The notes beneath the pieces were generated by a model. It saw only the letters and a program-made list of their open reading frames with translations, did not search any database and had not been told where the DNA came from. The position numbers and the translations under genes were made by a program. Shown in pieces: positions 10,741-57,771 of a DNA stretch of 64,000 bases (within the stretch, counting starts at the first letter, position 1; every line of letters begins with the position of its first letter). The stretch spans positions 4,866,405 through 4,930,404 of the forward strand of contig JBNZDD010013675.1 in the NCBI GenBank assembly GCA_050575255.1, given 5' to 3'. The stretch is from Harriotta raleighana. Taxonomy: Eukaryota.

Positions 10741-10770
10741 CCATGCTCTCTCTCTTATCTCTTTCTTTAG

Positions 10771-10890
10771 CTGTTTCCTGGCCGTCCTATCGTGATGAAG
10801 TTGCTTAAGAGTGTGCAGACCTGGCTGTCTGAGACTCGCTCTGCAACACACTTTTCTGGCTTAGCAGAGGTGCTGGACAACAAAATGGGG
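10771..10890 (+). CDS. QSOX1: QSOX1 coding exon (about exon 9)
   Basis: ctttag| ... |gtaagc; LFPGRPIVMKLLKSVQTWL...VLDNKMG (FPGRP motif); not in the ORF track, read manually. Confidence 0.92.
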
Positions 10891-10959
10891 GTAAGCTACA
10901 TGCTGAAGAACTGGCCCAGTAAACCTCGCTCTCACAGCTCGCCCACCACACATATCCAC

Positions 10960-11560: not shown

Positions 11561-11743
11561 CTGATTCCCCCTTGGATTCTGTCTTTAGATGCTGCAACCA
11601 CTGTGCTTCTATTTGGACTGAGAGGGAGAGGGGAGAGAGAGAGATCCAAAAGACCATGTTATAACAGGGATCAAACTGTAGCTACAAACAAAATGTTTCA
11701 AGCGGGTGTACCGATATATCTTCTTTCCTTTCTTGTTTTCCAG

Positions 11744-11894
11744 GTGCCAGGGGCTGCACTGTCGAGCGGGGGTAGTTGGGCGGCCTGTCAGGGAAGCCGA
11801 CCTCAGTTCCGACACTACCCCTGCTCGCTCTGGGTCCTCTTCCATGTCTTGTCAGTGCAAGCGGCAAATTACAACGAAACCGCGGCCGCACGAG
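11744..11894 (+). CDS. QSOX1: QSOX1 coding exon (about exon 10; start of Erv/ALR domain)
   Basis: ttccag| ... |gtaaag; [30 protein letters not shown], the conserved QSOX CxGS...PCSLWxLFH motif. Confidence 0.95.
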
Positions 11895-12080
11895 GTAAAG
11901 TCTTAAACTCGTTATTGATTACGGCCAATCTTTATTGAATTGAATGTATATTTTGTGGGCGAGACCAGGCAACTTTAATGCATTCTTCAAAGTACTGTAC
12001 TTCACCGTGACGAGTGTTAAGTGAGTTTGTAAGTAAACGCAGCAGTCGGTTTGCACCCAGCAATGGCTGATAATAGACAG

Positions 12081-14823
12081 GAGGTGATTGAACAATTTAA
12101 CTGATGGTTTGTTGGCCATGACACCAGGAGAAACTACCTTCTCTTTTCTGTCAGCACCAAGTGTTTATCTCCACCCCAGGCTTCAATGGAGAGTCAGCTT
12201 GGACTGTAAGCTCAAGTACTCACATGGGTCATAAACCCTTCTGATTCCAGGGCAAGACCACTCCCAATTTAGCCACCTGTCTTAAATCTTGTCACGCTCT
12301 GTATGAGAGTTAATCCATGACTTCAGGCTATGATGTGACAAGCAGGGCAGTGCTCGCGAGCTCCCATCTGTGCAGCAGGTTAATTGGAGCTGTTGCTCTG
12401 AGCTGAGCAAACTTAGGAAAGTGTAAAAGGCAAAGTTGTATTTCAGAGAGTGAAGTTTTCGGGAAGGCAATTTCTGATTCTCAGTGGATTCTCATCTTTT
12501 TTTGGGTGGGGTGGTGGGGGGTGCGGGTAGAATACACAATATGATCCTGTATTTATTGCAAACAATTTGCATCCATATAGCGCCCTTTACATGGGGCTGC
12601 GTCTCAGAGTACTTAATACCCACCCCAGAGACCCCATGACGCATGATCACAACATTTAAGTTGGTCCCATTCTAGCATTTAATATTTCTCCTGGCCTCCC
12701 CTACACCCCTCCCCTACCCCCACCCACGTCCCCCACAAACATACACACTCCCCGAACTATTACCTAAAACCTAAAATTCCACCAAATTGTAACCTGTAAA
12801 ACTACTGACTTAATTTGAAAGCCAGTTTTCCACAGTACTCGAAATGAACCAGCTTCCGAATTTAATCCTGCTCAATCTTAAATTACGGGATAAGACCATA
12901 TGAAATGTCAGCCTGCCTGTTCATTTTTTTTTACCACAGGATTTTACTTTTGAAGTGCAGTGATAGTTTTAATAAGGATTCTTGCATTTGATATAGTGTC
13001 ACATTAGGTCATTGAGGTGTCTCAAAGCACTTCACAGAATATATAATAAAGTGGATTGACTATGTACTTTTTGTGCGAAACCCAATGCCCAATTGCGCAC
13101 AACAGTGTCCCTCAAATAGTTGTTTGTTTTTGAAGTGTTGTTTTGTTGGCGAATGCAGCAGCCAAATTTTACACACAGCCACTTCACACGTGAAGTGAAT
13201 GACAAATTTCCTTTTGGGAGGGGGGATTCATGGCGTGGGTAATGAGAGAAAATGGCTTCATGTTTTGGGTAGTGCTGTGGGATGTGTTTAGTTGTTATTA
13301 ATTGTTATTTAGTTGTTGTGGAGCTCCTGTGGCTCAGTGGTTAGAGCATTCGCCTTACAAGCTTGAGACCTGTGTTCGAATCCAAGCAGATCAGGGCGAA
13401 ACCTTGGGCAAGTTTCCTTACTCCACATACCTAATAACAATAATCCCTCCANGAGGTGATTGAACAATTTAACTGATGGTTTGTTGGCCATGACACCAGG
13501 AGAAACTACCTTCTCTTTTCTGTCAGCACCAAGTGTTTATCTCCACCCCAGGCTTCAATGGAGAGTCAGCTTGGACTGTAAGCTCAAGTACTCACATGGG
13601 TCATAAACCCTTCTGATTCCAGGGCAAGACCACTCCCAATTTAGCCACCTGTCTTAAATCTTGTCACGCTCTGTATGAGAGTTAATCCATGACTTCAGGC
13701 TATGATGTGACAAGCAGGGCAGTGCTCGCGAGCTCCCATCTGTGCAGCAGGTTAATTGGAGCTGTTGCTCTGAGCTGAGCAAACTTAGGAAAGTGTAAAA
13801 GGCAAAGTTGTATTTCAGAGAGTGAAGTTTTCGGGAAGGCAATTTCTGATTCTCAGTGGATTCTCATCTTTTTTTGGGTGGGGTGGTGGGGGGTGCGGGT
13901 AGAATACACAATATGATCCTGTATTTATTGCAAACAATTTGCATCCATATAGCGCCCTTTACATGGGGCTGCGTCTCAGAGTACTTAATACCCACCCCAG
14001 AGACCCCATGACGCATGATCACAACATTTAAGTTGGTCCCATTCTAGCATTTAATATTTCTCCTGGCCTCCCCTACACCCCTCCCCTACCCCCACCCACG
14101 TCCCCCACAAACATACACACTCCCCGAACTATTACCTAAAACCTAAAATTCCACCAAATTGTAACCTGTAAAACTACTGACTTAATTTGAAAGCCAGTTT
14201 TCCACAGTACTCGAAATGAACCAGCTTCCGAATTTAATCCTGCTCAATCTTAAATTACGGGATAAGACCATATGAAATGTCAGCCTGCCTGTTCATTTTT
14301 TTTTACCACAGGATTTTACTTTTGAAGTGCAGTGATAGTTTTAATAAGGATTCTTGCATTTGATATAGTGTCACATTAGGTCATTGAGGTGTCTCAAAGC
14401 ACTTCACAGAATATATAATAAAGTGGATTGACTATGTACTTTTTGTGCGAAACCCAATGCCCAATTGCGCACAACAGTGTCCCTCAAATAGTTGTTTGTT
14501 TTTGAAGTGTTGTTTTGTTGGCGAATGCAGCAGCCAAATTTTACACACAGCCACTTCACACGTGAAGTGAATGACAAATTTCCTTTTGGGAGGGGGGATT
14601 CATGGCGTGGGTAATGAGAGAAAATGGCTTCATGTTTTGGGTAGTGCTGTGGGATGTGTTTAGTTGTTATTAATTGTTATTTAGTTGTTGTGGAGCTCCT
14701 GTGGCTCAGTGGTTAGAGCATTCGCCTTACAAGCTTGAGACCTGTGTTCGAATCCAAGCAGATCAGGGCGAAACCTTGGGCAAGTTTCCTTACTCCACAT
14801 ACCTAATAACAATAATCCCTCCA
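12081..14823. repeat. Apparently identical 1371-bp tandem duplication around N13452 (probable assembly overlap)
   Basis: 12081-13451 equals 13453-14823; offset 1372 confirmed by the duplicated ORF 12282/13654. Confidence 0.93.
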
Positions 14824-15022
14824 AAAAAAACACAATAATAAAATTGGTCATTTCAATCCATGACTGTTTGTGGGACACTGCTGTGTGAAATTGGCTGCCT
14901 CGTTCCGCCCACCAATCTACAATCAATTCACTTTACAGTATATCCTGTGAAGCGCTTTGGGACGTGATAAGATATGAAAAGCGCTCTATCAAATGCAAGG
15001 ATTATTAAGGATTATTATTATT
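14692..15022 (+). mobile_element. tRNA-derived SINE, young-looking full copy
   Basis: ggagctcctgtggctcagtggttagagcattcgcc...gttcgaatcc head; (TTA)n tail. Confidence 0.9.
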
Positions 15023-15083
15023 CTTGTAGCCTGAGTGGACCCCAGGTTATGAGTGACTGACCCTCCTCTCTGCTCTTTTCTAG

Positions 15084-15272
15084 GTGAGGTGGTGGACCCG
15101 CTGGAGGTCCTCCACAGCTTGCGAAGCTACGTCAAGAACTTCTTCAGCTGCAGACAATGTGCAACACACTTCGAAGCCATGGCGGCAGAGTCCATGGAGG
15201 ACGTCCGCACCCTGGATGAAGCCATTCTGTGGTTGTGGTCCAGACACAACCAGGTCAACGACAGGCTGGCAG
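15084..15272 (+). CDS. QSOX1: QSOX1 coding exon (about exon 11; Erv FAD-binding domain, redox CxxC)
   Basis: ttctag| ... |gtgagg; FFSCRQCATHF (CRQC at 15149-15160) and LWLWSRHNQVNDRLAG (WxxHNxVN motif). Confidence 0.96.
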
Positions 15273-17471
15273 GTGAGGGGGTAGAAGTTGAGAGAAGCTA
15301 AATGTTGACTGTTCTCGCTGTATTGAATAAGATTGAACAATAATCCTTGCAACATCAGGACTTGGTATTACATAGTCTCAGTTGACACTCCAATACAGTG
15401 CTGGGGTGTGGTTGCATTGTTGGAGGCGGGATTCTTAGGATGAGACATTAAACCAAGGTCCGGTCTGCCTTCGAAAAGAGAGGGGAGTTTCACCAGGACC
15501 ATCCTGGCATAAACCATAAAGAGACAGATGCAGGGCTGGTATGGGGTTCAGTAACCGGGCCAGGGTAGTATCATTTAGCGATGTTACTGTTTAGTGAGAT
15601 AGGTGTGTTGCACTGGTGACATTTAAAAGCTGTGTTTTATTTAAAAGCTTCCTGGTCGGTCCATCCATTTTCTATGACCCATCGGGAGGCATGTCCATCT
15701 TCATTCAGTGCAACCGATTTACAAGTGCAAATGTAGCTCAAATACCGGGGAGGTAGTGTGGCAATGGCCCTGTGCTGCGTTACGCCTGGCTTTGACTCCC
15801 TGCTGATCCGATCACATAGCCCTGTCTTGTCTTGTCAACCTGTCCTGTTTAATTTGAAGGTTCTGAGTTCTGTCCTAATCCTTAATCGCTTTAATGCTGC
15901 AGTACCGGGCAGACAGATCTAACCATCTGCTCCTGACAATGCTCCAGAGATGCTATCACTCCCTGTTTCTGTACTGATTTTCCCCTTTATATAACTGAGG
16001 TCTAATTTGTGTCATTGTTTAATGGGAATTCTTCATAAGGAATCATCTCCCACACCCCCAACCCCTTTCAATTCTATATAGTCACCAACCCCTTCTCCCT
16101 GTTCATTGTTTAACCCCTGTCACTTACTATGTACTATTTCATGGCTGTTTTCAAAGATAGTTGTTCAAGACTTAGGAGAAAGCCACCCACCCTCTGAGCC
16201 ATGGTCTCTTTACATTTCACAAGTTTCAGAATTTGACAGGGACTTAAATACCATATAAACCATGAAAAATACTTCAAAATTGGGACTAAATTCAACAATG
16301 TGCTAAATTCTGAACGCTCTGAAATGCTACATAAAGAGGAGAATCTAGACCTGGGTAAAATTTCTCCCCATATTGTGTTGCAGACTTTTGCTTATTTCCC
16401 CAGGCAAACAGAGCAACCGAAACCATGCATGTGTGGATCTCTCATTTGATGGATTCCGAGACTCATAAGCATGATTTTGGATTTCCAGAGAACCATAGAA
16501 ATACCCCACAGAAGAACGTCATTTACCACCCTGTCTGTGCTGGGTCTTTTAAGAGCAGTCCTTTCAGTCCTATTTACCTGCTCGTTTTCCTCCCATACAC
16601 CTGTAACTTACTCCTTCAGTCTCAGTCAGACTGGCTGAACCAAAACAAAGTGTTTTCTTAATGTTTTGCTGGGATTTTTTTGTGAAGTCAAAAAATACAC
16701 CCTTGTGAAGTGGTTAGTGAGCTTGCCTTGTAAGAAGACCAGAGTCCAATTCCTTGGGGGGCAAAACCTTAAGCAAGTTTCTTTACTTCCTTACACACAC
16801 ACGCCTCTGTTACCTTCCAGTAAGTAGGAACCTGGTCATCAGTTGATTGGCAGATAACTTTCCAGGAACAATAATCCCTCAAAGAAAAAGGGGTCACTCA
16901 ATACATGATTGTTTGTAAGGCACTGCTATGTGCAGTTGGCTGTCCACAAAGTATACAGTTAATCCACTTTACAATATATATTTCTGTGAAGCTCTTTGAG
17001 ATATCTCAACGACATAAAGCGCTATATCAAATTCAGGGATTATTATATTTGTGGACACCTTCGGAGGGGGTTGGGGGGGGCTGGGGGCTGAATAGGGGTA
17101 AAAGAGAGCGAGAGAGATTGACGAGCGAGTGGGAGCTCCTAGGATTACTGAATTATTAATGAGGCAGGCAGCAGGTGGTCGCACGAAGCATTGCTAATCT
17201 CATGCAGTCATTGAGTGACCTTGTTCTTCGGGTCACAGTTGCTGGTGAATGCAGCACGTGGCAGTGTTTGGGGAGGGGGCTGCTTCTCAGGGGAGCATTT
17301 TTGACGTGTGGCGTTTAACACTGATCCTCCAGAGTCAATGAAGCGTGAAATCCATCATTTGTAAAGTGACATTACAATTAATTCTCTTTCTCTCCCTTTC
17401 CCCGCCCCTCTCCCTCGCCCCCTCCCTCCCACCCCCCAACACACGTCTCCTTTCCTCCACTCGCAAGACCC

Positions 17472-20400
17472 TATGACAGCAGTTGGGATCGTTCAAGGTC
17501 TGACTGTACCCTGAGGGAGCTGTTTGCAGTCCGTTCACTTTAGAAACCCAAAGAGAGTGGAGTTAGCCAAATTGAAACAGTCAGTGTGTGTTTACTCAAA
17601 GCCGTTCAACAGCATTGGTGTGTGTTAATTTTTTCGCAAAGAAAACAAAACACCACTTCCTTCCAACTGCAAGAAAGGTCTTCACCGGAACGTAATTTGC
17701 TTAATGAAATGTTGCAGGAAATTTATGCGCATCTTCCCTCCACCTAAGCCCTGAATGTGTTTTTGATGTTGAGTTCCTGAAAAGAAAACTGCTCTGAGGA
17801 TAGAGATGGAGAATGGTGAGGATCTTACAGGTCCAAGCCAAGATCACCCAGCTCACCTTGGAGCTGACATCCTAGCCACGGACAACAGGATTCTCTCTGA
17901 GGCACACACTCCCATCAGTGTTCCTGACTGCTTTTGTGGTATCACTCCAAAAGGCAGGTTACTCTATTGAAACCAATAGCTACAGAGGGATCTTGCTGAT
18001 TTCACTGGCTCTCAAAACGGTGCTTTGGGTAGTTACTATGTAATTTTATTGTTACTACAAGTGTATCAGGCACATCGGAGGCTTATAGTTTGATCAGTTA
18101 GAAGCAGGCTGGCTTCTGTTTTAGTGTGGAATGTGTGGAACAGGTTGAGGCTCTGATAAGCAGGATCCATTCCCTTCTGCATCCCATTCCAACAATCTAT
18201 CCCTGGAATTTCCATGTGTGAGTGGGATGCATGGAATTCTTAATTTGACATGATAATGGTTTCCGCATGTGTCAGCCACTCGGCTGATCAAAACATTTTT
18301 AATAAAATCCTCTTCTGACACCCAAGAGGAGTCTGAACACTTTATGCCCATATCCACCTCCACTGGCGGTTGCTACCACTGTAGGTTGTGGGACAAACAG
18401 CTTTTTTTTTAGGAACTCAACTTGAATAACACATTCAGGGCTTGGTGGGAGGGAAGATGCGCATAAATTTCCTGCAACATTTCATTAAACAAATTAAGTT
18501 CCGGTGAAGACCTTTCTTATTTATTTATTTATATATTATATTTATATAGCGCCTTTCACGTCAGGAGGACGTCCCAAGGCGCTGTACAGTCAAGTGGGGG
18601 GAGGGGTCGGGGGAAGAAAAGCAGGAAAAACTGACTGTATATTTGTGGGCGAAACGCGGCAGCCAAATTGCGCACAGCAGTGTCCCACAAACAGTCATGG
18701 AAGCGAGAGGGAAGGAAGAGGTGGTTGGTTTTCTTTGTGAAGTTTGTACCAGGTGCGGCCTGGTCACATTCACCAGGCCAGTGAGGATTCAGTCCAGCTC
18801 TGTCAGAGTCGGAGGTCAAGAGCCCTCGAAAGAAAGTGACAGTATTAATAATATTACTATTATTAATCCTTAGATTTCATACAACACTTTTTGCATTGGG
18901 ATATCTCAAAAGCGCTGCACAGGATGCACTGTCAAGCGCAGTGAATGTGTATTTTGTAGGCAAATGCATCAGCCAATTTGCGCAAAGCACATTGCACATC
19001 CCTCATACAGTCATGAAGTGAATGACCAATTTTATCTGGTGTATTGTGAGCTAGGACATTGGGAAAAACTCCCTTCCCTTATTAAATAGAGCTGTGGGAT
19101 CTTTATCATCCACCTGAACGGTTTAATGTTTATTGTCTCATCCGAGAGGTGTCTCTCACAATGCAAAACGGCCCCCAACANTATGACAGCAGTTGGGATC
19201 GTTCAAGGTCTGACTGTACCCTGAGGGAGCTGTTTGCAGTCCGTTCACTTTAGAAACCCAAAGAGAGTGGAGTTAGCCAAATTGAAACAGTCAGTGTGTG
19301 TTTACTCAAAGCCGTTCAACAGCATTGGTGTGTGTTAATTTTTTCGCAAAAGAAAACAAAACACCACTTCCTTCCAACTGCAAGAAAGGTCTTCACCGGA
19401 ACGTAATTTGCTTAATGAAATGTTGCAGGAAATTTATGCGCATCTTCCCTCCACCTAAGCCCTGAATGTGTTTTTGATGTTGAGTTCCTGAAAAGAAAAC
19501 TGCTCTGAGGATAGAGATGGAGAATGGTGAGGATCTTACAGGTCCAAGCCAAGATCACCCAGCTCACCTTGGAGCTGACATCCTAGCCACGGACAACAGG
19601 ATTCTCTCTGAGGCACACACTCCCATCAGTGTTCCTGACTGCTTTTGTGGTATCACTCCAAAAGGCAGGTTACTCTATTGAAACCAATAACTACAGAGGG
19701 ATCTTGCTGATTTCACTGGCTCTCAAAACAGTGCTTTGGGTAGTTACTATGTAATTTTATTGTTACTACAAGTGTATCAGGCACATCGGAGGCTTATAGT
19801 TTGATCAGTTAGAAGCAGGCTGGCTTCTGTTTTAGTGTGGAATGTGTGGAACAGGTTGAGGCTCTGATAAGCAGGATCCATTCCCTTCTGCATCCCATTC
19901 CAACAATCTATCCCTGGAATTTCCATGTGTGAGTGGGATGCATGGAATTCTTAATTTGACATGATAATGGTTTCCGCATGTGTCAGCCACTCGGCTGATC
20001 AAAACATTTTTAATAAAATCCTCTTCTGACACCCAAGAGGAGTCTGAACACTTTATGCCCATATCCACCTCCACTGGCGGTTGCTACCACTGTAGGTTGT
20101 GGGACAAACAGCTTTTTTTTTAGGAACTCAACTTCAATAACACATTCAGGGCTTGGTGGGAGGGAAGATGCGCATAAATTTCCTGCAACATTTCATTAAA
20201 CAAATTAAGTTCCGGTGAAGACCTTTCTTATTTATTTATTTATATATTATATTTATATAGCGCCTTTCACGTCAGGAGGACGTCCCAAGGCGCTGTACAG
20301 TCAAGTGGGGGGAGGGGTCGGGGGAAGAAAAGCAGGAAAAACTGACTGTATATTTGTGGGCGAAACGCGGCAGCCAAATTGCGCACAGCAGTGTCCCACA

Positions 20401-20891
20401 AACAGTCATGGAAGCGAGAGGGAAGGAAGAGGTGGTTGGTTTTCTTTGTGAAGTTTGTACCAGGTGCGGCCTGGTCACATTCACCAGGCCAGTGAGGATT
20501 CAGTCCAGCTCTGTCAGAGTCGGAGGTCAAGAGCCCTCGAAAGAAAGTGACAGTATTAATAATATTACTATTATTAATCCTTAGATTTCATACAACACTT
20601 TTTGCATTGGGATATCTCAAAAGCGCTGCACAGGATGCACTGTCAAGCGCAGTGAATGTGTATTTTGTAGGCAAATGCATCAGCCAATTTGCGCAAAGCA
20701 CATTGCACATCCCTCATACAGTCATGAAGTGAATGACCAATTTTATCTGGTGTATTGTGAGCTAGGACATTGGGAAAAACTCCCTTCCCTTATTAAATAG
20801 AGCTGTGGGATCTTTATCATCCACCTGAACGGTTTAATGTTTATTGTCTCATCCGAGAGGTGTCTCTCACAATGCAAAACGGCCCCCAACA
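17472..20891. repeat. About 1.71-kb tandem duplication around N19181 (probable uncollapsed haplotypes)
   Basis: 17472-19180 versus 19182-20891; I see about 3 substitutions and one 1-bp indel. Confidence 0.92.
17634..18741. mobile_element. Long inverted-repeat element (foldback or non-autonomous DNA transposon-like)
   Basis: Left arm 17634-17791 is the reverse complement of 18398-18518 plus 18709-18741; the right arm is split by a SINE fragment. Confidence 0.7.
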
Positions 20892-23070
20892 CTGCATTGG
20901 AGCATCAGTCTTGACCAGGAGTCGCCAATTAGTCGATCACAGCTAGGTGGCGATCTTATGCATAATCAAAAAGACAAGAGGAAGGAGCGACAGAACCGTG
21001 TTGTTATCGAGTCCAATAGAAAATGAAGCCAGGTGCATAAAGTATTTCATGCATCTCAAAATAAAAATAGAAATTCGAATTTTTAAACCGGTAAATACCA
21101 CCTTATGGTGTGTGCATGAGATGCCACATAGCACCAAACGACCGGTTAAAGACCCTTGGTATAGAACCATGAGCTCAAAGTCAACAAGCTGGGGTTTGAT
21201 CACACAGCGTTCTGCCTCTGAGGTGAGAGAGCTGCCAACAGAGACAGGTTGACTACTTCCAGAAGAGAGTGTGAACTTTATTCTGAATATGACCTGCCGA
21301 TGCAATGAAGACCTAAATAGTGGCGGGTGGGAGAGAGGGTGAGGAGGGGTGCATGGCTGATGAGGAATATCCCATAAACTGTCTTGTTTAAATTAATTAT
21401 GCAAATGCTTCTGTAGGGACAATTCTCCGGTGGTGTGTAAATTTTCGACCTCCAAACTATGGAGCTCCCAAGGTCGTTGAAATGTAACATTAATCATTCT
21501 TGAGTTTGATATAGCGCCTTATCACATTGTTGAGATGTCTCAAAACGCTTAATAAAATATACTGTAAAGTGAATTCAATGTATATTTTGTGGGCAAAACA
21601 TGGCAGCCAATCCCACACAGCAGTGTTCCACAAACAGTCATAATAATAAATAATAATAATCCTTGCATTTGATATAGCGCTTTTCACATCTTATCAACGT
21701 CCCAAAGCGCTTCACAGAATACACTGTAAAGTGAATTCACTGTATATATTTTTTGGATTAAATAACCAAATTATTATTTTTTTAAACAATGGTCTCCTGA
21801 CAACAATAGATTCCTGACTCTCAGACTCCAGCTACACTGCCCAACTTCCATTCCAGGGAGCACAACAGTTGGGGTGGGATTTCTGCTCCTTTTGATACCT
21901 CCCTGTTGAACGCATAGCCTTAAGGTTGTTAAAGAGTTGGCCAGGAATCAAGGGAGTGATATAAAATGCTCAGTGTCACGAAGGGTGTATTGGACCCTGG
22001 GGAGAAAGGAGCAGCTGTATCCTAGTGTCTTCATAAAGAGAAGGGGGCTGGATCGGGACACAGAACATCATGTGAGGCAGTAAATAGAAAAGGACCATAT
22101 ATCAAACGAGAGAATACACTCGAATGGTGGCTCCCACAGGGCACTGAATTTATTCATGAGCGTCAGCGAGATTCATTTAGTTGTGAATAAAATAAAAATA
22201 AATTTGATGTGGTTTTAGGAGTGTGTGGTTAGCCTTGCAACAGCTCTGCTGGAGTTTTCTGCTCTTTGTTGGTTGCCCATGCCCCAGTAATCTCCTAATA
22301 ATCCGTGCGTTTGATACGGGGGCCTGTAAACCTCAAACTGTCTCAAAGTGCTTTGCGGGCAATGGCTATAAAGTGCAATGGCTGTGTATTTGGAGGCAAA
22401 CATGGCAGCCAGTTTGCACGCAGTGATGTCCCACAAAGAGACGTGAAATGACCTGTTTTATCTTAGGGATTGTTTGCCAGGACACTGGGAGAAACTCTCA
22501 CTTTTCAAACTGTCACAGGATCCTTAACGTCCACCTGAAGAGGCAAACAGGTTTATATTGTCGTCTAATATATATATATATATATTCACACAATATATTG
22601 TACAGTTAGCTGACTTTGTATTTTGTGCACAAAATGCTGCAGCCAATTGCACACAGCACTGTCCCACAAACACATGGGTTGAGTAACACACAAATTTTTT
22701 GGTGGGAGGGGAGACATTATTATCCCCGGAAAGCAATCTGAAGTGAAAGGCGCTTTATCAAATGCAAGGATTGCTATTTCTAACTGGGGTCCAATAGCCT
22801 AGTGATTAGAGCAAGCGAGAGGACCTTGGTTCGATTCCTGGTTGGGGTGAAATCTCAGATACGTTTTCTTTGTCATTAGTCCATTCTTACTTACATTCTC
22901 AAGAAGTAAAAGGCGCTCTATAATTGTAATCTTGTTGTTGTTGTTGCTGCTAGTTGATTGGCGGATCGCTTTAATAAATAATCCCTATTAAAAAATAGTG
23001 ATAATAATTTGGTCCCCGAACCATTACAGTACTAATTCAAACCCTGATGATTGCTCTTTTCTCTTCTCAG

Positions 23071-23891
23071 GATCATTGAGTGAGGATCCAAAATTCCCGA
23101 AGCACCAGTGGCCAAGTCCGGACCTTTGTGCCGAATGTCATGATGAGGTCTACGGGGAGCATGTCTGGATTGATGATGAGGTGCTGAAATTCCTGAAGAA
23201 GCATTATTCCGCGGACAACCTGGACTACAGTTATGTGGAGGCAGAGGCTGAGCTCCTGAAGAAGCACGTCACGAAAGAGGGGGCAGATTCTGAAGATCGA
23301 CCAAAAGAAGAGAAGCCCAGAAGAGGAGCAGAGCATGTGAAAGAAGAGTCGAATGCAAAGGAGAATGAAGGAAGGGTTGAAGCAGCAACTAGCATTCTTC
23401 AGCGGGACTCAGCAACAACTAGGAGATTGAGAAAGGACAGAACGCAAAGGCGGAGTATTATTGTGGGGAAACACAAGCCTAAAGCGCAAGAAGAGGACAT
23501 TGTGGATCTGGATGATTTCGTGGGGCAACAGTACAAGAGCAGTGCCCAGAGAGTGAGGGTCAGAGATGAGGAGACGATCCACATGGAGGTGCACAACCGC
23601 AAAGGGCAGCTACATCTGCAATCCGTGGATGACTCGGAGGCTGTCGATTACGTGGCCGTAGCGGAGAGGGTCAGGAAACGGGACATTAGGAGTGATTACT
23701 TTGAGGGTGAAGACCATACCAAGAGCAGGGTGTGGCTGCTGAAGTTTGGGACCGGGTTCTCCCGCATGGACATCAGTCTGTGCATTCTGCTCTACTTACT
23801 GACCTCCATTTGCCTCTTGGGAATGTATCTCTACTTCAAAAGGAGATTCTGGTGTGGGTGGAAGTGGGGAAACAGCATGACGCCAGCATGA
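23071..23891 (+). CDS. QSOX1: QSOX1 last coding exon (distal CxxC, stalk, C-terminal transmembrane helix)
   Basis: tctcag| acceptor; SEDPKFPKHQWPSPDLCAECH; TM segment DISLCILLYLLTSICLLGMYLYF; stop TGA at 23889-23891. Confidence 0.96.
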
Positions 23892-32982: not shown

Positions 32983-33179
32983 TGTGCATTGAGTGTATCT
33001 TAATGCAATGTACTTGCATTAAAACAACTGTGATGTGAAGGGTAGTGAAACACAATCATGAATTGGCTTATAAAAATTGTACTTTGATGCCAAATACATA
33101 AAGTGAGGAGGGGAATGGGGTGGGGGCGAAGGGTTGGAGGGTTAAGGGTACCTGCTTTTTGCCTCCTTGCCTCGTATAA

Positions 33180-33566
33180 CAAGCGCCAGGCAAGTAAAGT
33201 GCCTGTCCCTATAGCTCATCCCTCTGAGAGATGATAGCCTTTGATTACATTACCTCTGATCCCAGGAGAGAAAGAGAGAGAGAGAGCACCGATCGCTTTG
33301 TGTGAGGGCTTCAAGAAGGGAGGGAGGGGATGAGTGAGTGAGTGAGTGGCTGGGTGTATGATCGGATCTGAAACCAGGCACTTTTTCCTGGTTGTCCCAC
33401 AAAGAGGAACTCAGGGAGAAGGTGTGGACAAGAGGGTGGGGTAAAAGAGAGAGAGAGAGAGAGAGAGGGGGGGAGATTGAAAGAGAGAAAGAAAGAGAGA
33501 CTAGAGTCTAAGTGGCGGAAGTGTATCTATCTGGCTTTAGACGTCCCTGCTGAGATGTGCTCAGTG
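33180..33566 (+). promoter_or_regulatory. Putative promoter and 5'UTR of the upstream LHX4 exon
   Basis: GA-repeat tracts, retained CpGs, SINE-poor; TCF/LEF-type CCTTTGAT at 33238-33245. Confidence 0.45.
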
Positions 33567-33657
33567 ATGGACAGCAGGAGAGTAGAGCCAGAGAGCCAGA
33601 GGCTTCACAAAGATTTGCTGCTGTCCCTCCTCGCTCAGAACCAGCAACTTCGAAACG
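33567..33657 (+). CDS. LHX4: Putative alternative first coding exon of LHX4 (LHX3b-like N-terminus)
   Basis: Strong Kozak gtgATGg (in-frame upstream ATG at 33555); 30 codons plus 1 nt; donor acg|gtgaga; DLLLSLLAQNQQLRN resembles LHX3b DLLLALLARRADLRR; phase 1 joins exon 2 to give ...LRN-E-IPLC. Confidence 0.72.
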
Positions 33658-33766
33658 GTGAGAGATTGCGCCCTATATTCGCACACCAGATCCAATTTTA
33701 CCCCCAAAAAAAATTCAGCGACTTATCACGAAGTCGCTTTCACATTCATTCAAATGGAGAAGGGTT

Positions 33767-33798
<32 letters not shown>

Positions 33799-36489
33799 GG
33801 TGGGTGTGTGTATGTGTGGGTGGGGGTGAGGGAGAGTCAGACAGATTCTCGCATTGACTCTCAACGATTATTTTATGTTTCAAATTAATTTGTGGCAAAG
33901 TAATGATGATGGGTTTCTGCTCCCAAAGGGAAGGTTATCGAACCACATATCAACTTCTTGTGGCTGAAATAGATACACACATACAAATATATATATGGGT
34001 ACGATTTAATATATTATATATAAAGTATTTATACAGTATGTCGGATGTGCTAGTTCATTTCAGTTGCTCTGTGATTCAGACCTGAACTACCTTGTGAAAG
34101 ATTCACTTACAATAATACTGCAGTAAATGGATTGCAAAAGTAGACTCAAAGCCATGAGATAATCTTCCGAATATATATTTTTATATATATATATGAGAGG
34201 GGGGAGATAGTGAGCGATGTTGAGTTTTGTTTTAATGTCTTGAACAAATTCCAGCGGATCCTTCGTCCCCTATTTAAGTTTGAGCCTAGCACACATTCTC
34301 CAGTCAATTATTAAGCCAGCAGACTACTCCAGAGGCTGCCCATGTCCCTTAATAGCATTTGCGCTAAACTGCAATTTAATTTCCCTCTGTCTTATCAATA
34401 GCTTTCTCCTCTCCTCTACAATTAGGCAAAGGCTGGGGTCTGAGCTGGGAAAACAGTGACTGGCGGTTTTGTATTGTGTATAGATATGTATTTGATCCTA
34501 AAGGAAAATAAGGCTTTTTTTTGGACGCATAATTAATAATCTGCTTTCGTTTTTTTTAAAAAAAACACAAATTTGTTTCTTCGCTAAAGGACTCAAGTTC
34601 TCCCAGGGAATGTAGAATTCAAGATCTTGGGTAGGGATTTGACTCATTGTGTTGTAATATTTAGCAATAGTTGAAAATAGGAAAATAATGAGAATGTGTG
34701 CGAATTGTTTTTCTTAAAAAAAGCCAGGTTTAGATGCAAGTGTTTTTTTAAAGAGAGTAAAAATGAGGAAAATTGATTTTTATTTACATATCCTGTGTGT
34801 TTATTCATTTTCAGTAAACGCAAGTAGGATAATCCTTGCCTTCTTTGTGTGTGTCTACAGTATGTTTGAGAATTGGTTTAGAAACGGTTTTTGTTGTAAG
34901 ACTTTTTTGGAGGCGAAAACATAGAAAGCAAATACTTTAAATATCATTTATTCAATTGAATGTATTTGTTTTGTTCCATATCGAGTGATTATGTTTTTTT
35001 TGGGGTGTGGAATATTTCGACTGTTGCCTTAGTTTAAGGGCAAATTTATAAATAAATAGTAAATAAATAAATGCTTTTCATTCCCATTGGGACTGTTTGT
35101 TCGACGATTCAGCAAAGCACAGACGAATTAGCACCAGGAAGAAATAAATAATTTGTTTATTGTGTTAAATAAACGCGAGACAGATGTAACAAATGCAATA
35201 CTATATCAAATCAATTACATGTATCAGAAAGACAGAGACAGTGCAACAGTGAAGTGCATTTGGATTTACTTCTGTGTTTCAAAGGGCGATTGGAAAATTG
35301 GTTGATTTTGAATGAAAGTCTTGGTGCAAATCGGATTTAGAAAAGTGGAATATTTTCAATCTTGTCTCCTAGAAAACAAAATGTTCTTGTTGTTAAGTAT
35401 CATAAGTCCCATCGAGTTTGCTAAAATCCACAGTTTAAAATGTAACCCTCCCTTGCTTATTCCAGACTTCCCCTCGCCTCAAATGGTATGTTTTGGCTCT
35501 ATTCGAAAAGAGAAGTGAGTTTCTCTCTCTCTCTCTCTCACTGTGCCCCGACTAATAATTCCCCAAATAAAATTGATCACTCACACCATGGCTTGTTTGT
35601 TGTACAATGCTGTGTGCAAATTGGCTGCCAAGTTACGCCCACAAAATTCACAGTCAAACCATTTTACAGTGTATAATAATAATTGTATTTGATATAGAAC
35701 CTTATTGCATGGTTGACATGTCTCAAAGCACTGCACAGAATATATTGTAAATAGATTCACTGTATATTTTGTCTACGAATATCCTATGAAGCACTTTGAG
35801 ATATCTCAATTGGATATTGATAAGGCACTATATCAAATGAAAGGATTATTATGTATATTTGGGTACAAACATATGTGTGAATATATATTCTTGTATTAAT
35901 GAGAATATGTTGGCATCTATGAGCATCTATAAGCACGTACACATGTGTACGTGTATGCACAAATGTGTATTTTTGTCTTTCGCACATGTATACATATGGA
36001 ATGTATATATAGAGGAACAGCCTTAATCAGGGAATGAGCTGTGACACATTAGCACCAGCTATTAAATCAGCAGCCTAACTTTGAGATGCATCATTTTACT
36101 CCCTGCCAAGCACATGGGCAATTTTACTGGCATCACTTTAGAATTTAATTTCCTATGGAGTATGTTTAATTCAGGCATGTGTGAAATCTGCTAAGTATGT
36201 CATTGTCAGCATCTACAAGTAGGTAGATGTGTGCACATACAAGGATGCATAATATGTTCAGCTATACATGCTTATGTTGTTTATATGGTCATGTACAAAC
36301 ATGTATATTTGTGTACATATATGCATATACATGTTCTCGTAACAATGTGCATATGTGGGATCTACAGCCATGTACAGTGTATGTTTGCATATGCAAAAGT
36401 ATCTAAAGTGCCTTTACAGGGGTGTTCACTTGTGCAAGTACATGTGTGAATATAGATGTACAAAAATGTGCATACATGTGCATCTGTGA

Positions 36490-36750
36490 TCCAGGCAGAT
36501 CAGGGCGAAACCTTGGGCAAGTTTCCTTACTCCACATACATGTCTAATAATAATCCCTCCAAAAAAAACAACACAATAATAAAATTGGTCATTTTCAGAA
36601 AATCCATGACTGTTTGTGGGACACTGCTGTGCACAATTGGCTGCCGCATTTCGCCCACAAATATACAGTCAATTCACTTAAGTTCTGTGAAGCGCCTTGA
36701 GATGTCGATAAGATGTGAAAGCACTATATCAAATGCAAGGATTATTATTA
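36490..36750 (+). mobile_element. 5'-truncated tRNA-derived SINE
   Basis: Closely similar to the body of 14692-15022. Confidence 0.85.
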
Positions 36751-38009
36751 GTATTATCTGGAGGCTCATATATATATATATGCATGCAAACGTTTTCATA
36801 TTTTTTCTTTTCATCTTTTCCTCCCAATTGTGGTATTATTCTGTGGCGTGCATGACATCCTATTTGTAGCACTATTAGTTAACTTTACGAATGAAAAGCA
36901 CAATACTCCAGTGGTGACTGAATTTGTATATTTCTACCGGAAGGACAGAACAAAGCAACACATGCAGTGTTTTTATTGGACGTGCTTGGGTTACAAGACC
37001 TACGAAATGTTCAATTCAGTTGTTTCTCTATCCAAAGCGATCATAGGGGTTAATATCTAGACTGTGCGAGGGTCAGTATTAAATCAGCATCTCCCCTGTG
37101 AGGAGACTGATAAATTACAGCGTGTTCAATTTGAACAATCTTGTATATTATGTAAAATAGAAATGAAAAAAAACGCTACATGGCACTGACTAAAGTCCAT
37201 CAGAGACTGCAATGGAAGCCTCTCGAACGTTTACAGTACAGAAAGATTTTACCCACAAAATAGAGTCAACCCATGTACATCCTGTGAAGCATATGCATAT
37301 ATCTAAATATATATTCTAATGTTAGTAATACGGATCAGTACTCAAACAAGGGTAAAGTAATGACACCTGTGTAACAGAAATGCATTTTTATAGTGTCCGT
37401 CACATAGGGTAATGTCTCAGAATGTTTATCAGAAATATTGTCTCATCTCCTCTTTCAAAACTGTATGACTCCTTTTTCCCACTGGAGGCCAGAGTGATTG
37501 CTTTCACTTGTGATCAAAGTATGTGTACCCGGTGTCTGTCAGAGATCAGCCTGAGATCTCTGAGTGTCCCCACATTTCACCACATTTTCTTGATCCCAAG
37601 TCAATGTGAGCAACCTGTCTGCACTTGCCACCCACCCTGCCATCTAACTTTGTCGCTTGTGAGTTATTGTGGTACTCACTTGTAGAAATGTTAGCACACC
37701 ATATGGCTGGCTGGTTCAGTCCCTAGACTGTGTCAGTCCCTAGATCGATTTGTGCCTCTCAGTGTGTGTGTGTGGAGAAGCTCTGAGACGCATTTTTTTC
37801 TTTCTCTGTGTCTCTGACTATATATTAGTCCACGAATTGTAGAAACACATTGTATACCGCCACACTGAAAAAATATTGGCCCTTATAACACTAACCATGT
37901 TTTACTTTGCTGTACTTGTTTGCAAACACGAGAGGCAGAAAATACAATATCTCGTATTTGCGAAAAAAGCCGGCCACATCAGCCATTTAAAACTTCAGGA
38001 GCTAGAAGG

Positions 38010-38250
38010 AGACATAGGAACCTCGAAACATAGGAACAGGAAACAGGCCATTGAGCCCCTTGAGCCTGTTCCGTTATTCTATTAGATTATACAGATCTAT
38101 ACCTCAATTCCATTTATGGCTTTACTCCATATCCCCTGATGCCTTTAGTGTTGCCAAAAATTTATCCACCTCAATCTGGAAAATTTGAATAGATCTAGCC
38201 TTTTGGTGGAGCAAGTTTCAGATTTCCAGTATCCTTTGTGTGAACCCTCC
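38010..38250 (-). mobile_element. CR1 LINE 3' end
   Basis: acataggaacagga..aggccattgagccccttgagcctgttccg, the reverse complement of a CR1-type tail. Confidence 0.65.
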
Positions 38251-52847: not shown

Positions 52848-53665
52848 GTGAGGGTGAGGTTGGAGCCAGAGTGTTGGGTGAACACATGCTTAGGGTTGTT
52901 TGACTGTTTTGACAGTAAGACGAGTTCCAGCCTCCCAATGCTCCCACTCAGTGAGTATTCCCACCAAGCAATGGACAGATTGGTCTTGCCCCCACCGCCC
53001 CTCTCTCTTCCCCCCACCCCCCACCCCTCCCCACCACTCCCTCTCCCCCTCCCCTCTATCCTATCCCCATCGCCTCGCCTCCCCTTTAACTGGGTTGCAG
53101 AGAAAGTGTGCGATCGAGTGTCCAAAGCCCAGGAAAGGATTTCACGCCGGTCCCTTCACTGATGACTGTTAGTTAGTCCCCAGTGGGCGACATCGGAGTG
53201 GGAGAAGAGGCGGTGTAACGGGTTTCATTCCAAGAGAATATTTGTGGACATGTCCCCGCCCATGATGGATCGACCATCTCCTTCTAGGGTTGAAGCCCCT
53301 CCTCTGGAGGGAATGGGAGTCCTCGGAGCCTGGTTGGCAGGTGGGAGCAGATGATGTAATGATGCATTAAGACTGTCATCCACATCTGAATGTACCGGTG
53401 AGAGAAGGGATTCCCGCATCCAAGCCAGCCACACGCAGGGCAGTGGATTTATGTGTTGATATCTGCACGGATCCCTTGGAAGATAAGACTGGGAGTTATT
53501 AGTATTATCATTATTATTATTAATATTATTATTACTACTATTATAACTGGGAGCTGTTTTATTTTCTGAAGGGAAGGGAAAGGCTGGAAAGGGGGCTGTG
53601 GGGGGGAGGGGGTGGGAGGGGGAGGGTGGGGGGAGTGGGGGTTGAGTGGGCTTTCGAAAAAAAAA
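52560..53665 (+). promoter_or_regulatory. LHX4 proximal promoter and 5'UTR region
   Basis: CpG-retaining, SINE-free, G/C tracts upstream of exon 1; ETS motif ACCGGAAGT at 52607-52615. Confidence 0.6.
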
Positions 53666-53741
53666 ATGATGCAAAGTGCGGCGATCGCCACAGAGAGCCC
53701 TGGAAAAGGAGTTCAGGAGCTGCTGGGAGTCACAGTGCAAC
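53666..53741 (+). CDS. LHX4: LHX4 canonical exon 1
   Basis: MMQSAAIATESPGKGVQELLGVTVQ(Q), similar to human [26 protein letters not shown]; 76 coding nt; donor c|gtaagg. Confidence 0.93.
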
Positions 53742-53896
53742 GTAAGGCCATCCTATTTGCAAAAAAAAGAAAGGAAAGCGATTTAAAAAGAGCTGTAGTC
53801 AACCTTTTTTTCCCCTTGCCTATCGTCCAGTCTATCTAACCTGTCAGCTTCTCACAGCTGATGTAGCTGGAGAGCCGGGGCGCATCCAAACATCTT

Positions 53897-53917
53897 GGAG
53901 CTGTTCCCGGTGCTGAA
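53897..53917 (-). promoter_or_regulatory. RE1/NRSE (REST binding site) candidate in LHX4 intron 1
   Basis: Minus strand TTCAGCACC-GG-GAACAG-CTCC against consensus TTCAGCACC-NN-GGACAG-CNCC; canonical 2-nt spacer, one core mismatch. Confidence 0.65.
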
Positions 53918-56900
53918 AGAGAGGCGAAAATTAGAATTAAAAAAAATTTTTTTTAGATTTAAGCAAACAATTTTGGGGGGAGGTGGGTGTGGTGGGGGAA
54001 GGGAAGGGAAGGGAAGGGAGGGGGCCGGCGGATCATAAAGGGAAAGAAAATAAAAGCGAGTGTAAAACGATGCTGACATTTTTTAATAGGCTCAGAGATT
54101 TCAGTAAATGCATGGATTAAAGGCCTCGGTAATTGGGGCTGGGCACTGCAACTTTTTAACCGTTATTTTTTCCAATGGCATCTTATATAAAATGAACCGT
54201 ATTTTATACGCACTCCAACTTTAACATGGAGCAGTGATGGAGAGAGAGAGAGAGAGAGAGAGAGTGCAGTAGAACGGTGGGCTGTGATATCCGGCGAGAT
54301 AAGGGGTTGGGGAGTTATCTATTTTCTGAGATAACTCCCAAAGCCCCCACTCCCATCCCGTTATATATATATTCGGGATAAGTACGTGTGTTGCATTATC
54401 CGGATATAGCAAATGCAAGGATTGTTGTTCTCTGTTTGTAATGAACAGCTCCCACTTAAATGGGAGCTTTGCAGAGGCGCCGCGTTAGCTGTTGTACTGT
54501 ATCATGCATTTGGTGCACTGCTTCAAGTCTCCTTGTGCTTGTATGTAGCGCTGAAAAGTCTAGAGACAACTTCAGGAAATAACCACAGCCGACTGTACTG
54601 TGTTTCTTTCTCTCCCCAATTTGCTGCGGGCAGCCAGGGCAATGTGCAATCATTATAGTGATCGATTTCATTCAATTTATTTATCCTACATGCTTGTTTT
54701 TTTTCCAAAAAAATAATTAATTAATTTTGTGGGGTTTTTTTGGAGGGTGGGGTGAGGGTAGGGGGAAACAGTCTCCTTGTATTGTTTATCCAACAAAATT
54801 GTATTGCATATGTTAAGTGCCAAGTGTAAGTGATTTTTGTGTATTATATCATATATATATTTGATTTTTAAAAAATAATTGGGGGTTGTATGCTTGTACT
54901 GTTTAGCAAAGGGAAATCCAACATCTATCAAGTTTCAAGTGGTGCGCATATATGTGTATATATTATATATTAGGAAAGTAAAATCTTAATGAGAACAGGT
55001 CGGAGTTATATACAGGACTGGGAATCAAGAATGGATGGGAATAACAGGTGAGGCAGCCTAGGTGTGGGCAATGCCTGGTTTAAGTTGTGTTAACACTAAG
55101 AAGTAGGTGTGTATGGGGAGCCTTGCTGACAGAAACCTCTCTACAAATGTTGAATGAACGTTTTATCTGTTTTGTTGGTCTGCTGAGAGCTCAAGTCTGA
55201 TAGCAGTATTTTTGTGTGCTTTTTTTAACAACAAAATCGCCTTCAAAAGATTGTAATTTGAGGCTCCCTCGACATTAAAATAAATAAATTACCTCCAAAA
55301 GAAATGTATTAAGCGGCCCACCGGGCTGGCGAGTAAATGAACAAATTGACAAGACCTCCTTCCACAGAGACAAGAAGGATATTTATTTATTAATCTAATA
55401 CATCTGTAATGTACTCACATAAATACAGTATCCAGACTCGGATCAGCCGGTAAAGGATTTTGTACTTAAGATTTTCTGACAACACAGAACAACTGGCTGG
55501 ACAGAAATATCCCATTTATGTAATATTTGAGCTCTAAAGCGTTATCCGTTTAGCTGGTTCCACTGGGGGGTGTTTGCAAGAGAGCGGGGAAACTCTAACC
55601 AAGGGACATTTCATCATTAATGGAGCCAGGACAAGAGGGCAGTTTTACCTTGCAAAAATCTGCAAAATGTCTTTATTTACAGTTGGGTGTGGGTGGGCGG
55701 AGGGGGAGGGTTTGAGCTCTTGTAAATCCTTCCTTCCCAGCTAAACAGAACCGCTTTTTGGATCTAAAAAAAAGCACTATTTGATCTAAATATATAATAA
55801 CGTGTAATTTAACAAATCCGCAACCGCAAATAATTCAGAAAGAGTAAGCATGGCATTATATGCAGAAATGGATATTCATTCGATTATACATGGAATGGTG
55901 GAATGGTTTTGGACATCTAATTCTTTTATCTGCATTTAAATATAAAACCCAAATGCAACATTATAAATATATATATGTGTGTGTGTATATATATATATCA
56001 TATATATATTTATCAAGACATTTTCTAATAGTTAACAATATGCCGCCACACTTCGCCTTTCACCAACCAGACAATTCTCCTTAAATCGATTTAAATAAAC
56101 TCTTTCAACTATGTTTTAATAAAAACACAAATCGTCGATTTATTATCTGGGCTTGTTCGCTTTTCAAACCATGACACCAGGATTAAGAGTATCCAAATCA
56201 AACTGAGAATTCCGTGTGTACCAACACACCCAACACACAGAAATTCCCGTAAACACACACACATACTGTATTATGTATAATTGGGGGGAAATTCTGCTAT
56301 ACTTAGTGAATGGAAGACAGTCAAATACACAAACCACTCTTCCTCACACGTCCAACCAGGTTTAGATCTACAGATTTACTTTTCAAAATACTTTTTCCCC
56401 CCCGCAAAATATACAGCGAATTATTTGCAATATATTCTGTGAAGCGCGTTGAGATAAGGCGCTGTATCAAATGCAAGGAATAGTATCATTGTGGGTGCAT
56501 TTTTTTTTCTCTCTCTCTCGTTACAATATGCCGCTATAACAAAGTATTTCAGTGTTATCGATGTAATTGTGTTTCACAATGTGAATAGCTTGATATTTCT
56601 GTCTAGCTGAACAGTAAGGGTTAGTTTGGGAGGTCGCTTTGGACCAGTTCTGTGCCTCGTGTTTTGGGTGTGATCAGCTGATTTTTTTTTGCAACCTTCT
56701 CTGGTTTTCTGATCACACTTGTGTCCAGTCACAGGTTACAGAAAGCTTCCCAAGCCCAATCTAGGCTGCCCAACGTGAAGTGTTGAAAGAAAGGTTTATC
56801 GCTGGTAATCTAGGAGATAGGAGATGGGTTTGTGGATTAAATGTTTGCCCAGCCCTTGTGTATTCCTCATCTTGCTGTGCCTGGTATCCAGTGTTAATCC

Positions 56901-57746: not shown

Positions 57747-57771
57747 TTATGTCTGTTTGTTCCCTTTGCAG

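What the first reader, a model, noticed from the sequence alone, without database searches (positions are those of the whole stretch)
33555..33663. Candidate LHX3b-type alternative first exon: an LHX4 'b' isoform with an inhibitory-type N-terminus
Seen: 20 kb upstream of canonical LHX4 exon 1 is an ATG in strong Kozak context followed by exactly 30 codons plus 1 nt (MDSRRVEPESQRLHKDLLLSLLAQNQQLRN+g) and a G|GTGAGA donor. Phase 1 fits exon 2 and gives ...[11 protein letters not shown], whereas canonical exon 1 gives ...VQ-Q-IPLCAGC. Known: mammalian LHX3 has two first exons, and LHX3b ([39 protein letters not shown]) carries an N-terminus that inhibits DNA binding and transactivation; mammalian LHX4 is usually described with one first exon. 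The DLLLxLLA...LR motif, near-equal length, identical phase and recreated E-IPLC junction all match. Inference: the two-promoter activator/attenuator design predates the LHX3/LHX4 duplication and survives at LHX4 in this lineage. I cannot tell whether automated annotation already lists it as an isoform.
Basis: partly seen in the sequence, partly recalled or inferred. Interest (0 to 1): 0.85.

Follow-up and report, generated by a model that had tools for sequence, protein, structure and literature searches.

The report
Ancient second first exon of LHX4
A chimaera's LHX4 gene, which helps build the pituitary and nervous system, keeps a second, distant starting exon matching the 'b' start of its sister gene LHX3; predicted proteins of a shark, sturgeons, gar, jawless fishes and horseshoe crabs carry the same start, so it looks like the ancestral one, though its dampening effect is untested here.

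Summary
The exon is real and homologous to LHX3b. ATG 33567, 30 codons + 1 nt and a phase-1 donor are as described. An LHX3b-only profile ranks this frame first of 3653 six-frame peptides in the window (E 0.009).

It is not new to annotation. Bamboo shark LHX4 isoform X1 (XP_072429620.1) matches 16 of 17 core residues, and sterlet and gar carry diverged versions. These are 5 of 207 LHX4 records examined; none is from a teleost or lobe-finned vertebrate.

It sits in the same register in lamprey, hagfish and horseshoe-crab Lhx3/4. The partner first exons (LHX3a, canonical LHX4, horseshoe-crab X1) show no detectable homology, so the b exon is the shared part, not a matched activator/attenuator pair.

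The conserved core is predicted as a helix abutting LIM1 (moderate confidence). Inhibition is an inference from mammalian LHX3b and is untested. Transcription in this species could not be tested. Ten literature searches found no description of this LHX4 isoform, but the key older papers were unavailable.

The parts
33567..33657 (+). Coding part of the distal, LHX3b-type first exon of LHX4 (30 codons + 1 nt, phase 1)
   Evidence: orthologue XP_072429620.1 aligns over 33567-33656, E 1.6e-15
33609..33657 (+). Conserved core (K15 to the junction Glu): leucine-rich segment with LxxLL, predicted helix abutting LIM1
   Evidence: 16 of 17 identical to bamboo shark; column counts over 27 b-type N-termini; helix 17-33 in the shark model
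33555..33557 (+). Second in-frame ATG, four codons upstream, weaker context; absent from the bamboo-shark record
33539..33540 (+). Possible weak splice acceptor AG (11 of 15 pyrimidines) that would make 33541-33657 a phase 1-1 exon; unverified
33658..33663 (+). Splice donor of the b exon (GTGAGA)
33000..33566 (+). Presumed distal promoter and 5' UTR: GA-rich repeats, TATAA at 33069 and 33175, several short upstream ORFs; start site unknown
   Evidence: sequence only; function inferred
33658..57771 (+). First intron of the b transcript (24,114 nt), containing the canonical promoter and exon 1
53666..53741 (+). Coding part of canonical LHX4 exon 1 (25 codons + 1 nt, phase 1; donor at 53742)
   Evidence: matches C. 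milii XP_007893720.1; canonical-LHX4 profile E 4.4e-15
57772..57943 (+). LHX4 exon 2 (LIM1), shared acceptor for both first exons
   Evidence: PF00412 E 3e-16; 100% identical to C. milii LHX4
935..23891 (+). Upstream neighbour QSOX1 (3' exons to the stop at 23889-23891); context and synteny marker

Best explanation
LHX4 in this chimaera has two alternative first coding exons. A distal promoter about 9.7 kb after the QSOX1 stop starts a transcript whose first coding exon (33567-33657) splices over 24 kb, skipping canonical exon 1, onto exon 2. The product is LHX4 with the same LIM, homeodomain and C-terminal parts but a 31-residue b-type N-terminus: a variable, disordered first half and a conserved 17-residue leucine-rich helix that ends at the start of LIM1. 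This exon is the orthologue of the first exon of shark, sturgeon and gar 'isoform X1' and the paralogue of LHX3 exon 1b, inherited from the single bilaterian Lim3/Lhx3/4 gene. The helix most likely works as a protein-contact surface that retunes the factor; by analogy with mammalian LHX3b the likeliest effect is weaker DNA binding and activation on some targets. The strong start context may also limit leaky scanning to a shorter internal-start form. Shown: anatomy, frame, homology, conservation, age. Inferred: transcription in this species (about 0.9), helix as binding surface (about 0.65), net attenuation (about 0.45). The confidence below is for a used, b-type first coding exon.
For: Frame and phase. 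LHX3b-only profile: rank 1 of 3653, E 0.009; isolated peptide 17.9 bits. LHX3b, lamprey and hagfish N-termini (5 of 5 tried) each find 33612-33653 as their best tblastn place; the sterlet LHX4 b form and the two LHX3a forms do not. Junction-anchored, ungapped scores beat 20000 shuffles in 0-3 cases for all 11 b-type N-termini and not for the 4 non-b ones. Core conservation against bamboo shark is 16 of 17, canonical exon 1 is 22 of 25. Shark, sterlet and gar b records share their body letter for letter with a canonical isoform of the same species from the exon-2 boundary on. Shark and sterlet b records fall inside LHX4 (100/99). Helix 17-28 and 30-33 in a model whose LIM domains folded (block pLDDT 76-93; helix blocks 46, 61, 72). 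LxxLL in 24 of 27 b-type cores. Pig LHX3b matches 10 of the last 16 residues without gaps (read by eye from a font-shifted supplementary figure of PMC4919287). LHX3a is cited as making short forms by leaky scanning (PMC2330153).
Against: No RNA or junction reads could be examined. Only 1 of 21 chondrichthyan species with LHX4 records seen has a b-type record, and none was seen for C. milii, so use may be rare or tissue-restricted. All supporting LHX4 records are automated gene models. The donor is middling. For attenuation: the primary papers were not available, so the inhibitory role rests on reference-list titles and recall; in PMC4919287 both pig isoforms activated Fshb in CHO cells and repressed in LbetaT2 cells, although Cga activation in CHO cells was reported for LHX3a only; the Gln-Asn pair common outside mammals (20 and 17 of 27) is Arg-Arg in pig. 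The model gives no contacts and one earlier model failed.
Confidence: 0.88

Rival explanations
1. The exon is real but not an attenuator. The b form is the ancestral, fully active protein, and the two promoters mainly divide expression in time and tissue; inhibition is a mammalian or assay-specific property of LHX3b.
For: 6 of 7 cyclostome records are b-type and none has an LHX3a-like or canonical-LHX4-like start. Ascidian Lhx3/4 splits early and late functions between two first-exon variants (PMC4356046). Pig isoforms behaved alike on Fshb. The core differs in pig at the Gln-Asn pair.
Against: The hydrophobic core is the part shared with pig LHX3b (10 of 16), and such conservation implies a protein-level role. 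A paper title calls the domain inhibitory (reference lists). Cyclostome annotation may simply miss other first exons.
Confidence: 0.4
2. The segment is mainly an internal exon (33541-33657, phase 1-1), entered from an upstream non-coding exon or from QSOX1 read-through transcripts, rather than a promoter-driven first exon.
For: AG at 33539-33540 with 11 of 15 pyrimidines gives an open, in-frame 117-nt exon, and the QSOX1 donor at 11895 is phase 1. QSOX-LHX read-through models exist for C. milii, three sharks and lungfish. Fly Lim3B has two 5' exons.
Against: All 26 b-type records measured begin with Met 28-38 residues before exon 2, and the shark record starts with the same four residues as the window exon. 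All 6 read-through models join QSOX straight to exon 2 without the b segment. The tract is weaker than most real acceptors in the window, by eye. An upstream non-coding exon would not change the protein.
Confidence: 0.1
3. The exon is a silent relic or a chance look-alike.
For: 19 stretches with similar anatomy occur in the interval. No direct database hit for the peptide alone. Few chondrichthyan records carry it (1 of 21 species).
Against: 16 of 17 core identity across the chimaera-shark split, intact ATG, frame and donor; E 1.6e-15. The failed direct search is explained by a 40-residue query and by the shark record being a hidden cluster member, not a representative.
Confidence: 0.04
4. The segment is a misplaced or converted piece of the LHX3 locus.
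For: The window has assembly irregularities: single Ns and two overlap-type duplications.
Against: The core is 16 of 17 identical to shark LHX4 X1 but 8 of 17 to C. milii LHX3 b. It lies between QSOX1 and LHX4 exon 2.
Confidence: 0.01

Closest known systems
LHX4 isoform X1 of Chiloscyllium punctatum (XP_072429620.1), Acipenser ruthenus (XP_058887916.1, XP_058887917.1) and Lepisosteus oculatus (XP_015211910.1); automated gene models
   Same: Same gene, same junction, same register of the core; each species also has the canonical isoform with an identical body.
   Different: The window's N-terminus is 31 residues against 35, 36 and 30. Sturgeon and gar cores are diverged (8 and 7 of 17). No b-type record was seen for any holocephalan. 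None of these records is described as LHX3b-like in its name.
Vertebrate LHX3b (exon 1b isoform)
   Same: Same length class, same core, same end at the exon-2 boundary; pig 10 of 16 identical. Two isoforms differing only at the N-terminus (PMC5356396), from two promoters (PMC2935391).
   Different: Paralogous gene. The partner exon is unrelated. Here the b exon is the distal one, 20 kb upstream of its partner; in mammalian LHX3 exon 1b is recalled to lie downstream of 1a (no call confirms this). Inhibitory activity is reported for mammals only, as far as I recall.
Cyclostome Lhx3-like proteins (lamprey XP_032814559, hagfish A0A8C4Q1J1)
   Same: Same core, 9-10 of 17 identical.
   Different: They fall outside LHX3+LHX4 in the tree, with moderate support (83/80); no second full first exon was seen among 7 records.
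Invertebrate Lim3/Lhx3/4 first-exon isoforms (horseshoe crab X1/X2; Drosophila Lim3A/B; ascidian variants)
   Same: Two or more N-termini on a shared body. Horseshoe-crab X2 carries the b core in register (14.8 bits; 0 of 20000 shuffles). Fly Lim3A starts inside an intron of Lim3B, a nested layout as here.
   Different: Horseshoe-crab X1 matches neither vertebrate non-b exon convincingly (493 to 19773 of 20000 shuffles as high). Whether fly Lim3B or an ascidian variant carries the core was not tested.

Membership tests
LHX4 locus | Downstream exon encodes LHX4-type LIM1 and the gene follows QSOX1 | tested here: met
   LHX4 clade 100/99
LHX3b-type N-terminal domain | Significant similarity to a profile built only from LHX3b N-termini | tested here: met
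   rank 1 of 3653, E 0.009; 17.9 bits alone
LHX3b-type N-terminal domain | About 28-38 residues from Met, core ending in register at the exon-2 boundary, in frame | tested here: met
   31 residues, ungapped register
LHX3b-type N-terminal domain | Encoded by a transcribed first exon with its own promoter | not testable with these tools
   No RNA or CAGE data; indirect support from orthologous gene models
LHX3b-type N-terminal domain | Lowers DNA binding and transactivation (recalled; paper titles) | not testable with these tools
   Needs EMSA and reporter assays; mixed picture for pig LHX3b
Matched LHX3a/LHX3b two-promoter pair inherited by LHX4 | Partner first exon homologous to LHX3a | tested here: not met
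   LHX3a profile: canonical LHX4 N-termini at most 1.0 bit, no hit in the window below E 0.35; anchored score not above shuffles. Short, fast-evolving exons could hide old homology.
Matched LHX3a/LHX3b two-promoter pair inherited by LHX4 | Same order of the two first exons as in LHX3 | tested here: inconclusive
   Here b is distal; LHX3 order 1a then 1b is recalled and was not found in readable papers
Short leucine-zipper / coiled-coil segment | Heptad a/d pattern of hydrophobic residues with a buried Asn | tested here: inconclusive
   a/d positions L-L-N-L-I in 25, 26, 17, 24 and 27 of 27 rows, only about 2.5 heptads, low hydrophobic moment near 0.24; no solved-structure match; zipper likeness is recalled
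Purifying selection at codon level | Synonymous-biased change across chondrichthyan genomes | not testable with these tools
   No vertebrate DNA collection; protein-level proxy 16 of 17

The most novel reading that the evidence does not exclude
The 'LHX3b inhibitory domain' is a bilaterian-wide helical module and the ancestral N-terminus of Lim3/LHX3/LHX4, with no Pfam family of its own. LHX4 of cartilaginous fishes, sturgeons and gar keeps the ancestral layout (distal b exon, a second first exon nested in its intron, as in fly), LHX3a and canonical LHX4 exon 1 arose separately, and teleosts and tetrapods each lost the LHX4 b exon. The helix binds a conserved, still unknown partner or tunes LDB1/ISL1 complex assembly next to LIM1.
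Probability: 0.35. Interest if true: 0.72.

Novelty: new variant of a known kind. Interest (0 to 1): 0.5.

Why it matters
LHX3 and LHX4 specify pituitary cells and motor neurons, and one textbook difference (recalled) is that only LHX3 has a/b isoforms. The evidence here makes that difference a secondary loss in some lineages. It also reverses the usual view: the 'special' b start is the conserved one, shared from horseshoe crabs to chimaeras, while the 'standard' starts differ between genes. A 17-residue helix kept in register for that long probably binds something, so the mechanism of LHX3b inhibition becomes testable with natural variants (chimaera, shark, gar, lamprey, horseshoe crab) and a short list of invariant residues. 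The limit on interest is that orthologous isoforms already sit in RefSeq and two-isoform Lhx3/4 genes are known in mammals, flies and ascidians.

Tried and rejected
Direct protein search with the b peptide plus 10 upstream codons: 18 candidates, none at E <= 10; weak evidence, since the orthologue is a hidden cluster member. Pfam: no family for the b peptide or canonical exon 1. PDB sequences: no match for the peptide. ESM Atlas: best scores 0.84, leads only. Profile search with the b-type alignment returned 21 proteins: 19 named (17 gnathostome LHX3 b forms, lamprey, one sturgeon LHX4) and 2 unnamed that were not used; no mammalian LHX3b came back. First AlphaFold model (31 rows, mean pLDDT 48, LIM domains misfolded) was discarded. 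Homodimer prediction for residues 1-40 of the shark b form gave no answer (score 0.07, mark 0.32); it is not counted for or against. Search of the window for an LHX3a-like exon: none. Exon 3 motifs were not found after exon 2, so the rest of the gene lies beyond the window. A basic-charge explanation of mammalian inhibition was dropped: by eye the pig core is net neutral, the others 0 to -2. The LHX3b-only profile missed the gar b form (under 5 bits); the junction-anchored score recovered it, so profile counts undercount. Three primary papers were not held. The 50%-cluster library and the prokaryotic genome scan were not used. Unnamed hits from read or metagenome sets (16, 2, 3) were left out of all counts and stayed unchecked.

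Full report
Observation. ATG 33567 has G at -3 and +4, 30 sense codons and one base follow, and the donor GTGAGA starts at 33658. Canonical exon 1 (53666-53741) and exon 2 (57772-57943) are where stated, and both first exons join exon 2 in frame. A second in-frame ATG lies at 33555 and the frame is open back to 33369. The anatomy alone proves little: 19 stretches of ATG + 10-60 codons + phase-1 GTRAG occur between 24,200 and 57,771, against 6 on the reverse strand, and the donor matches the recalled consensus at 5 of 9 positions.

Locus. Exon 2 is a LIM domain, 100% identical to Callorhinchus milii LHX4. QSOX1 lies upstream on the same strand and ends at 23891. Two QSOX1 exons differ from C. 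milii at 5 of 48 and 6 of 43 residues, so the window is probably from another chimaera (inference).

Orthologues. Looking up cluster members of named LHX4 hits (at most 15 members shown per cluster) gave Chiloscyllium punctatum isoform X1, XP_072429620.1. Its N-terminus starts with the same four residues as the window exon and matches 16 of the last 17; tblastn places it on 33567-33656 at E 1.6e-15. Sterlet X1 and X3, a Chinese sturgeon model and gar X1 carry diverged versions. A junction-anchored score trained on 27 non-LHX4 b-type N-termini gives 39 for the window, 21-42 for these 5 records, and at most 6.9 (mean -16.7) for the other 202 of 207 LHX4-group records with an N-terminus of 17 or more residues. 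In shark, sterlet and gar the b record and the canonical record share their body letter for letter from the exon-2 boundary. A tree of 33 bodies puts the shark and sterlet b records inside LHX4 (100/99); gar was not in the tree. Against: only 1 of 21 chondrichthyan species seen has a b record, none was seen for C. milii, two members of one shark cluster and several numbered isoforms were never listed, and all are automated models. No coelacanth, bichir or frog LHX4 record was seen, so absence in teleosts and lobe-finned vertebrates is absence from a sample of proteins, not from genomes.

Homology to LHX3b. A profile of 24 jawed-vertebrate LHX3b N-termini, with no LHX4 and no LIM columns, ranks this frame first among 3653 six-frame peptides (E 0.009; next 0.87) and scores the peptide at 17.9 bits. 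No mammalian LHX3b came from the databases. The pig sequence, read by eye from a font-shifted supplementary figure of PMC4919287, is 32 residues to the junction and matches 10 of the last 16 without gaps. The window core is closer to shark LHX4 (16 of 17) than to C. milii LHX3 (8 of 17), so it is not a stray LHX3 piece.

Age. Six of 7 lamprey and hagfish records carry the core; the seventh has only 6 residues before exon 2. They fall outside LHX3+LHX4 with moderate support (83/80). Four of 8 horseshoe-crab records carry it too, in the same register (14.8 bits for two, about 4 for two; 0 of 20000 shuffles as high for the two tested), as alternative N-termini on a shared body. The b exon therefore predates the LHX3/LHX4 duplication and, on this evidence, the protostome-deuterostome split.

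What is not shared. LHX3a and canonical LHX4 N-termini do not match each other's profiles (at most 1.0 bit), the window has no LHX3a-like exon, and horseshoe-crab X1 matches neither convincingly. Two first exons are common in the family: mammals (PMC5356396), fly (PMC2935391), ascidians (PMC4356046). But only the b exon is demonstrably inherited. Here b is distal and the canonical exon nests in its intron; fly Lim3A likewise starts inside an intron of Lim3B, though I could not test which fly form has the core. In mammalian LHX3 I recall 1a lying upstream of 1b; no call confirms it.

Mechanism. Over 27 b-type N-termini the first half varies freely, while the last 17 residues hold L, L, N, L and the exon-2 Ile at heptad a/d positions in 25, 26, 17, 24 and 27 rows, and LxxLL in 24. 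An AlphaFold model of the shark protein from 88 rows folds both LIM domains and the homeodomain, leaves residues 1-17 disordered, and makes 17-33 a helix running into LIM1 at moderate confidence (block pLDDT 46, 61, 72). It reports no contacts. I infer a protein-contact helix beside the LIM1 surface that the C-terminal half of the LDB1 interaction domain touches (PMC3405102). For mammalian LHX3b an inhibitory role is named in a paper title and otherwise recalled; DNA binding is said to vary by isoform. The one functional paper I could read is mixed: Cga activation in CHO cells was reported for LHX3a only, but both isoforms activated Fshb there and repressed in gonadotrope cells. With b the only full form seen in jawless fishes, I put attenuation at about 0.45 and an active ancestral form with divided expression at about 0.4.

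Internal-exon rival. An AG at 33539-33540 would give an open phase 1-1 exon, and the QSOX1 donor at 11895 is phase 1. All 6 QSOX-LHX read-through models seen join straight to exon 2, and b records start at Met, so this is at most a minor route.

Literature. Ten full-text searches found no account of an LHX3b-type exon at LHX4 or of the motif in arthropods. The library lacks most subscription papers, and three primary papers were not held, so prior description is not excluded. Seen: passages of PMC3405102, PMC5356396, PMC3223203, PMC4709138, PMC3521148, PMC3701669, PMC2533040, PMC2330153 and PMC10810493; passages and one section each of PMC2935391 and PMC4356046; passages, two sections and the supplement of PMC4919287. 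Sloop 1999 and 2001, Yaden 2006, Mullen 2007 and Kobayashi 2010 were seen as reference-list titles only. Supplements of the other papers were not examined.

Verdict. The activator/attenuator reading is plausible and unproven. New variant of a known kind; interest 0.5.

Noticed in passing
window 11895 (QSOX1 donor) to 57772: This phase-1 QSOX1 donor joins LHX4 exon 2 in frame. RefSeq has QSOX1-LHX4 read-through models in C. milii, Carcharodon, Hemiscyllium and Rhincodon, and QSOX2-LHX3 models in C. milii and lungfish, all joining at exon 2. The parallel in both paralogous loci may be conserved read-through or a shared annotation artefact.
   Followed up: partly
P0364, P0362, P0366, P0367 (horseshoe crab Lhx3-like): Arthropod Lim3 isoforms carry the vertebrate 'b' core in the same register; Pfam gave no family for the window's copy.
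   Followed up: partly
window 12078-13451 / 13450-14823 and 17472-19180 / 19182-20891: Two tandem blocks, 99.8-99.9% identical, each pair split by a single N; likely scaffold-overlap assembly artefacts in QSOX1 introns.
   Followed up: partly
window about 590-670: A diverged partial copy of the QSOX1 exon at 1783-1935, lying upstream of the exon at 935 and so out of order.
   Followed up: no
P0315 (gar) and P0156, P0322, P0003 (sturgeons): The ray-finned LHX4 b core has changed faster (7-8 of 17 against the window) and lost the Asn, while matching each other well (0 of 20000 shuffles), which may mean relaxed or altered function before loss in teleosts.
   Followed up: partly
window 43173-43623: Degenerate tandem repeat of about 40-nt units inside the b intron (self-matches).
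   Followed up: no
window 4526-4836, 9947-10101, 14688-15007, 27240-27452, 36489-36756: Dispersed copies of a 200-300 nt repeat in both orientations, 78-86% alike; probably a SINE-like element.
   Followed up: no
P0012, P0155-P0157 (paddlefish, sturgeons): Some acipenseriform LHX4 models have a 44-residue insert between LIM1 and LIM2, absent from other isoforms of the same species.
   Followed up: no
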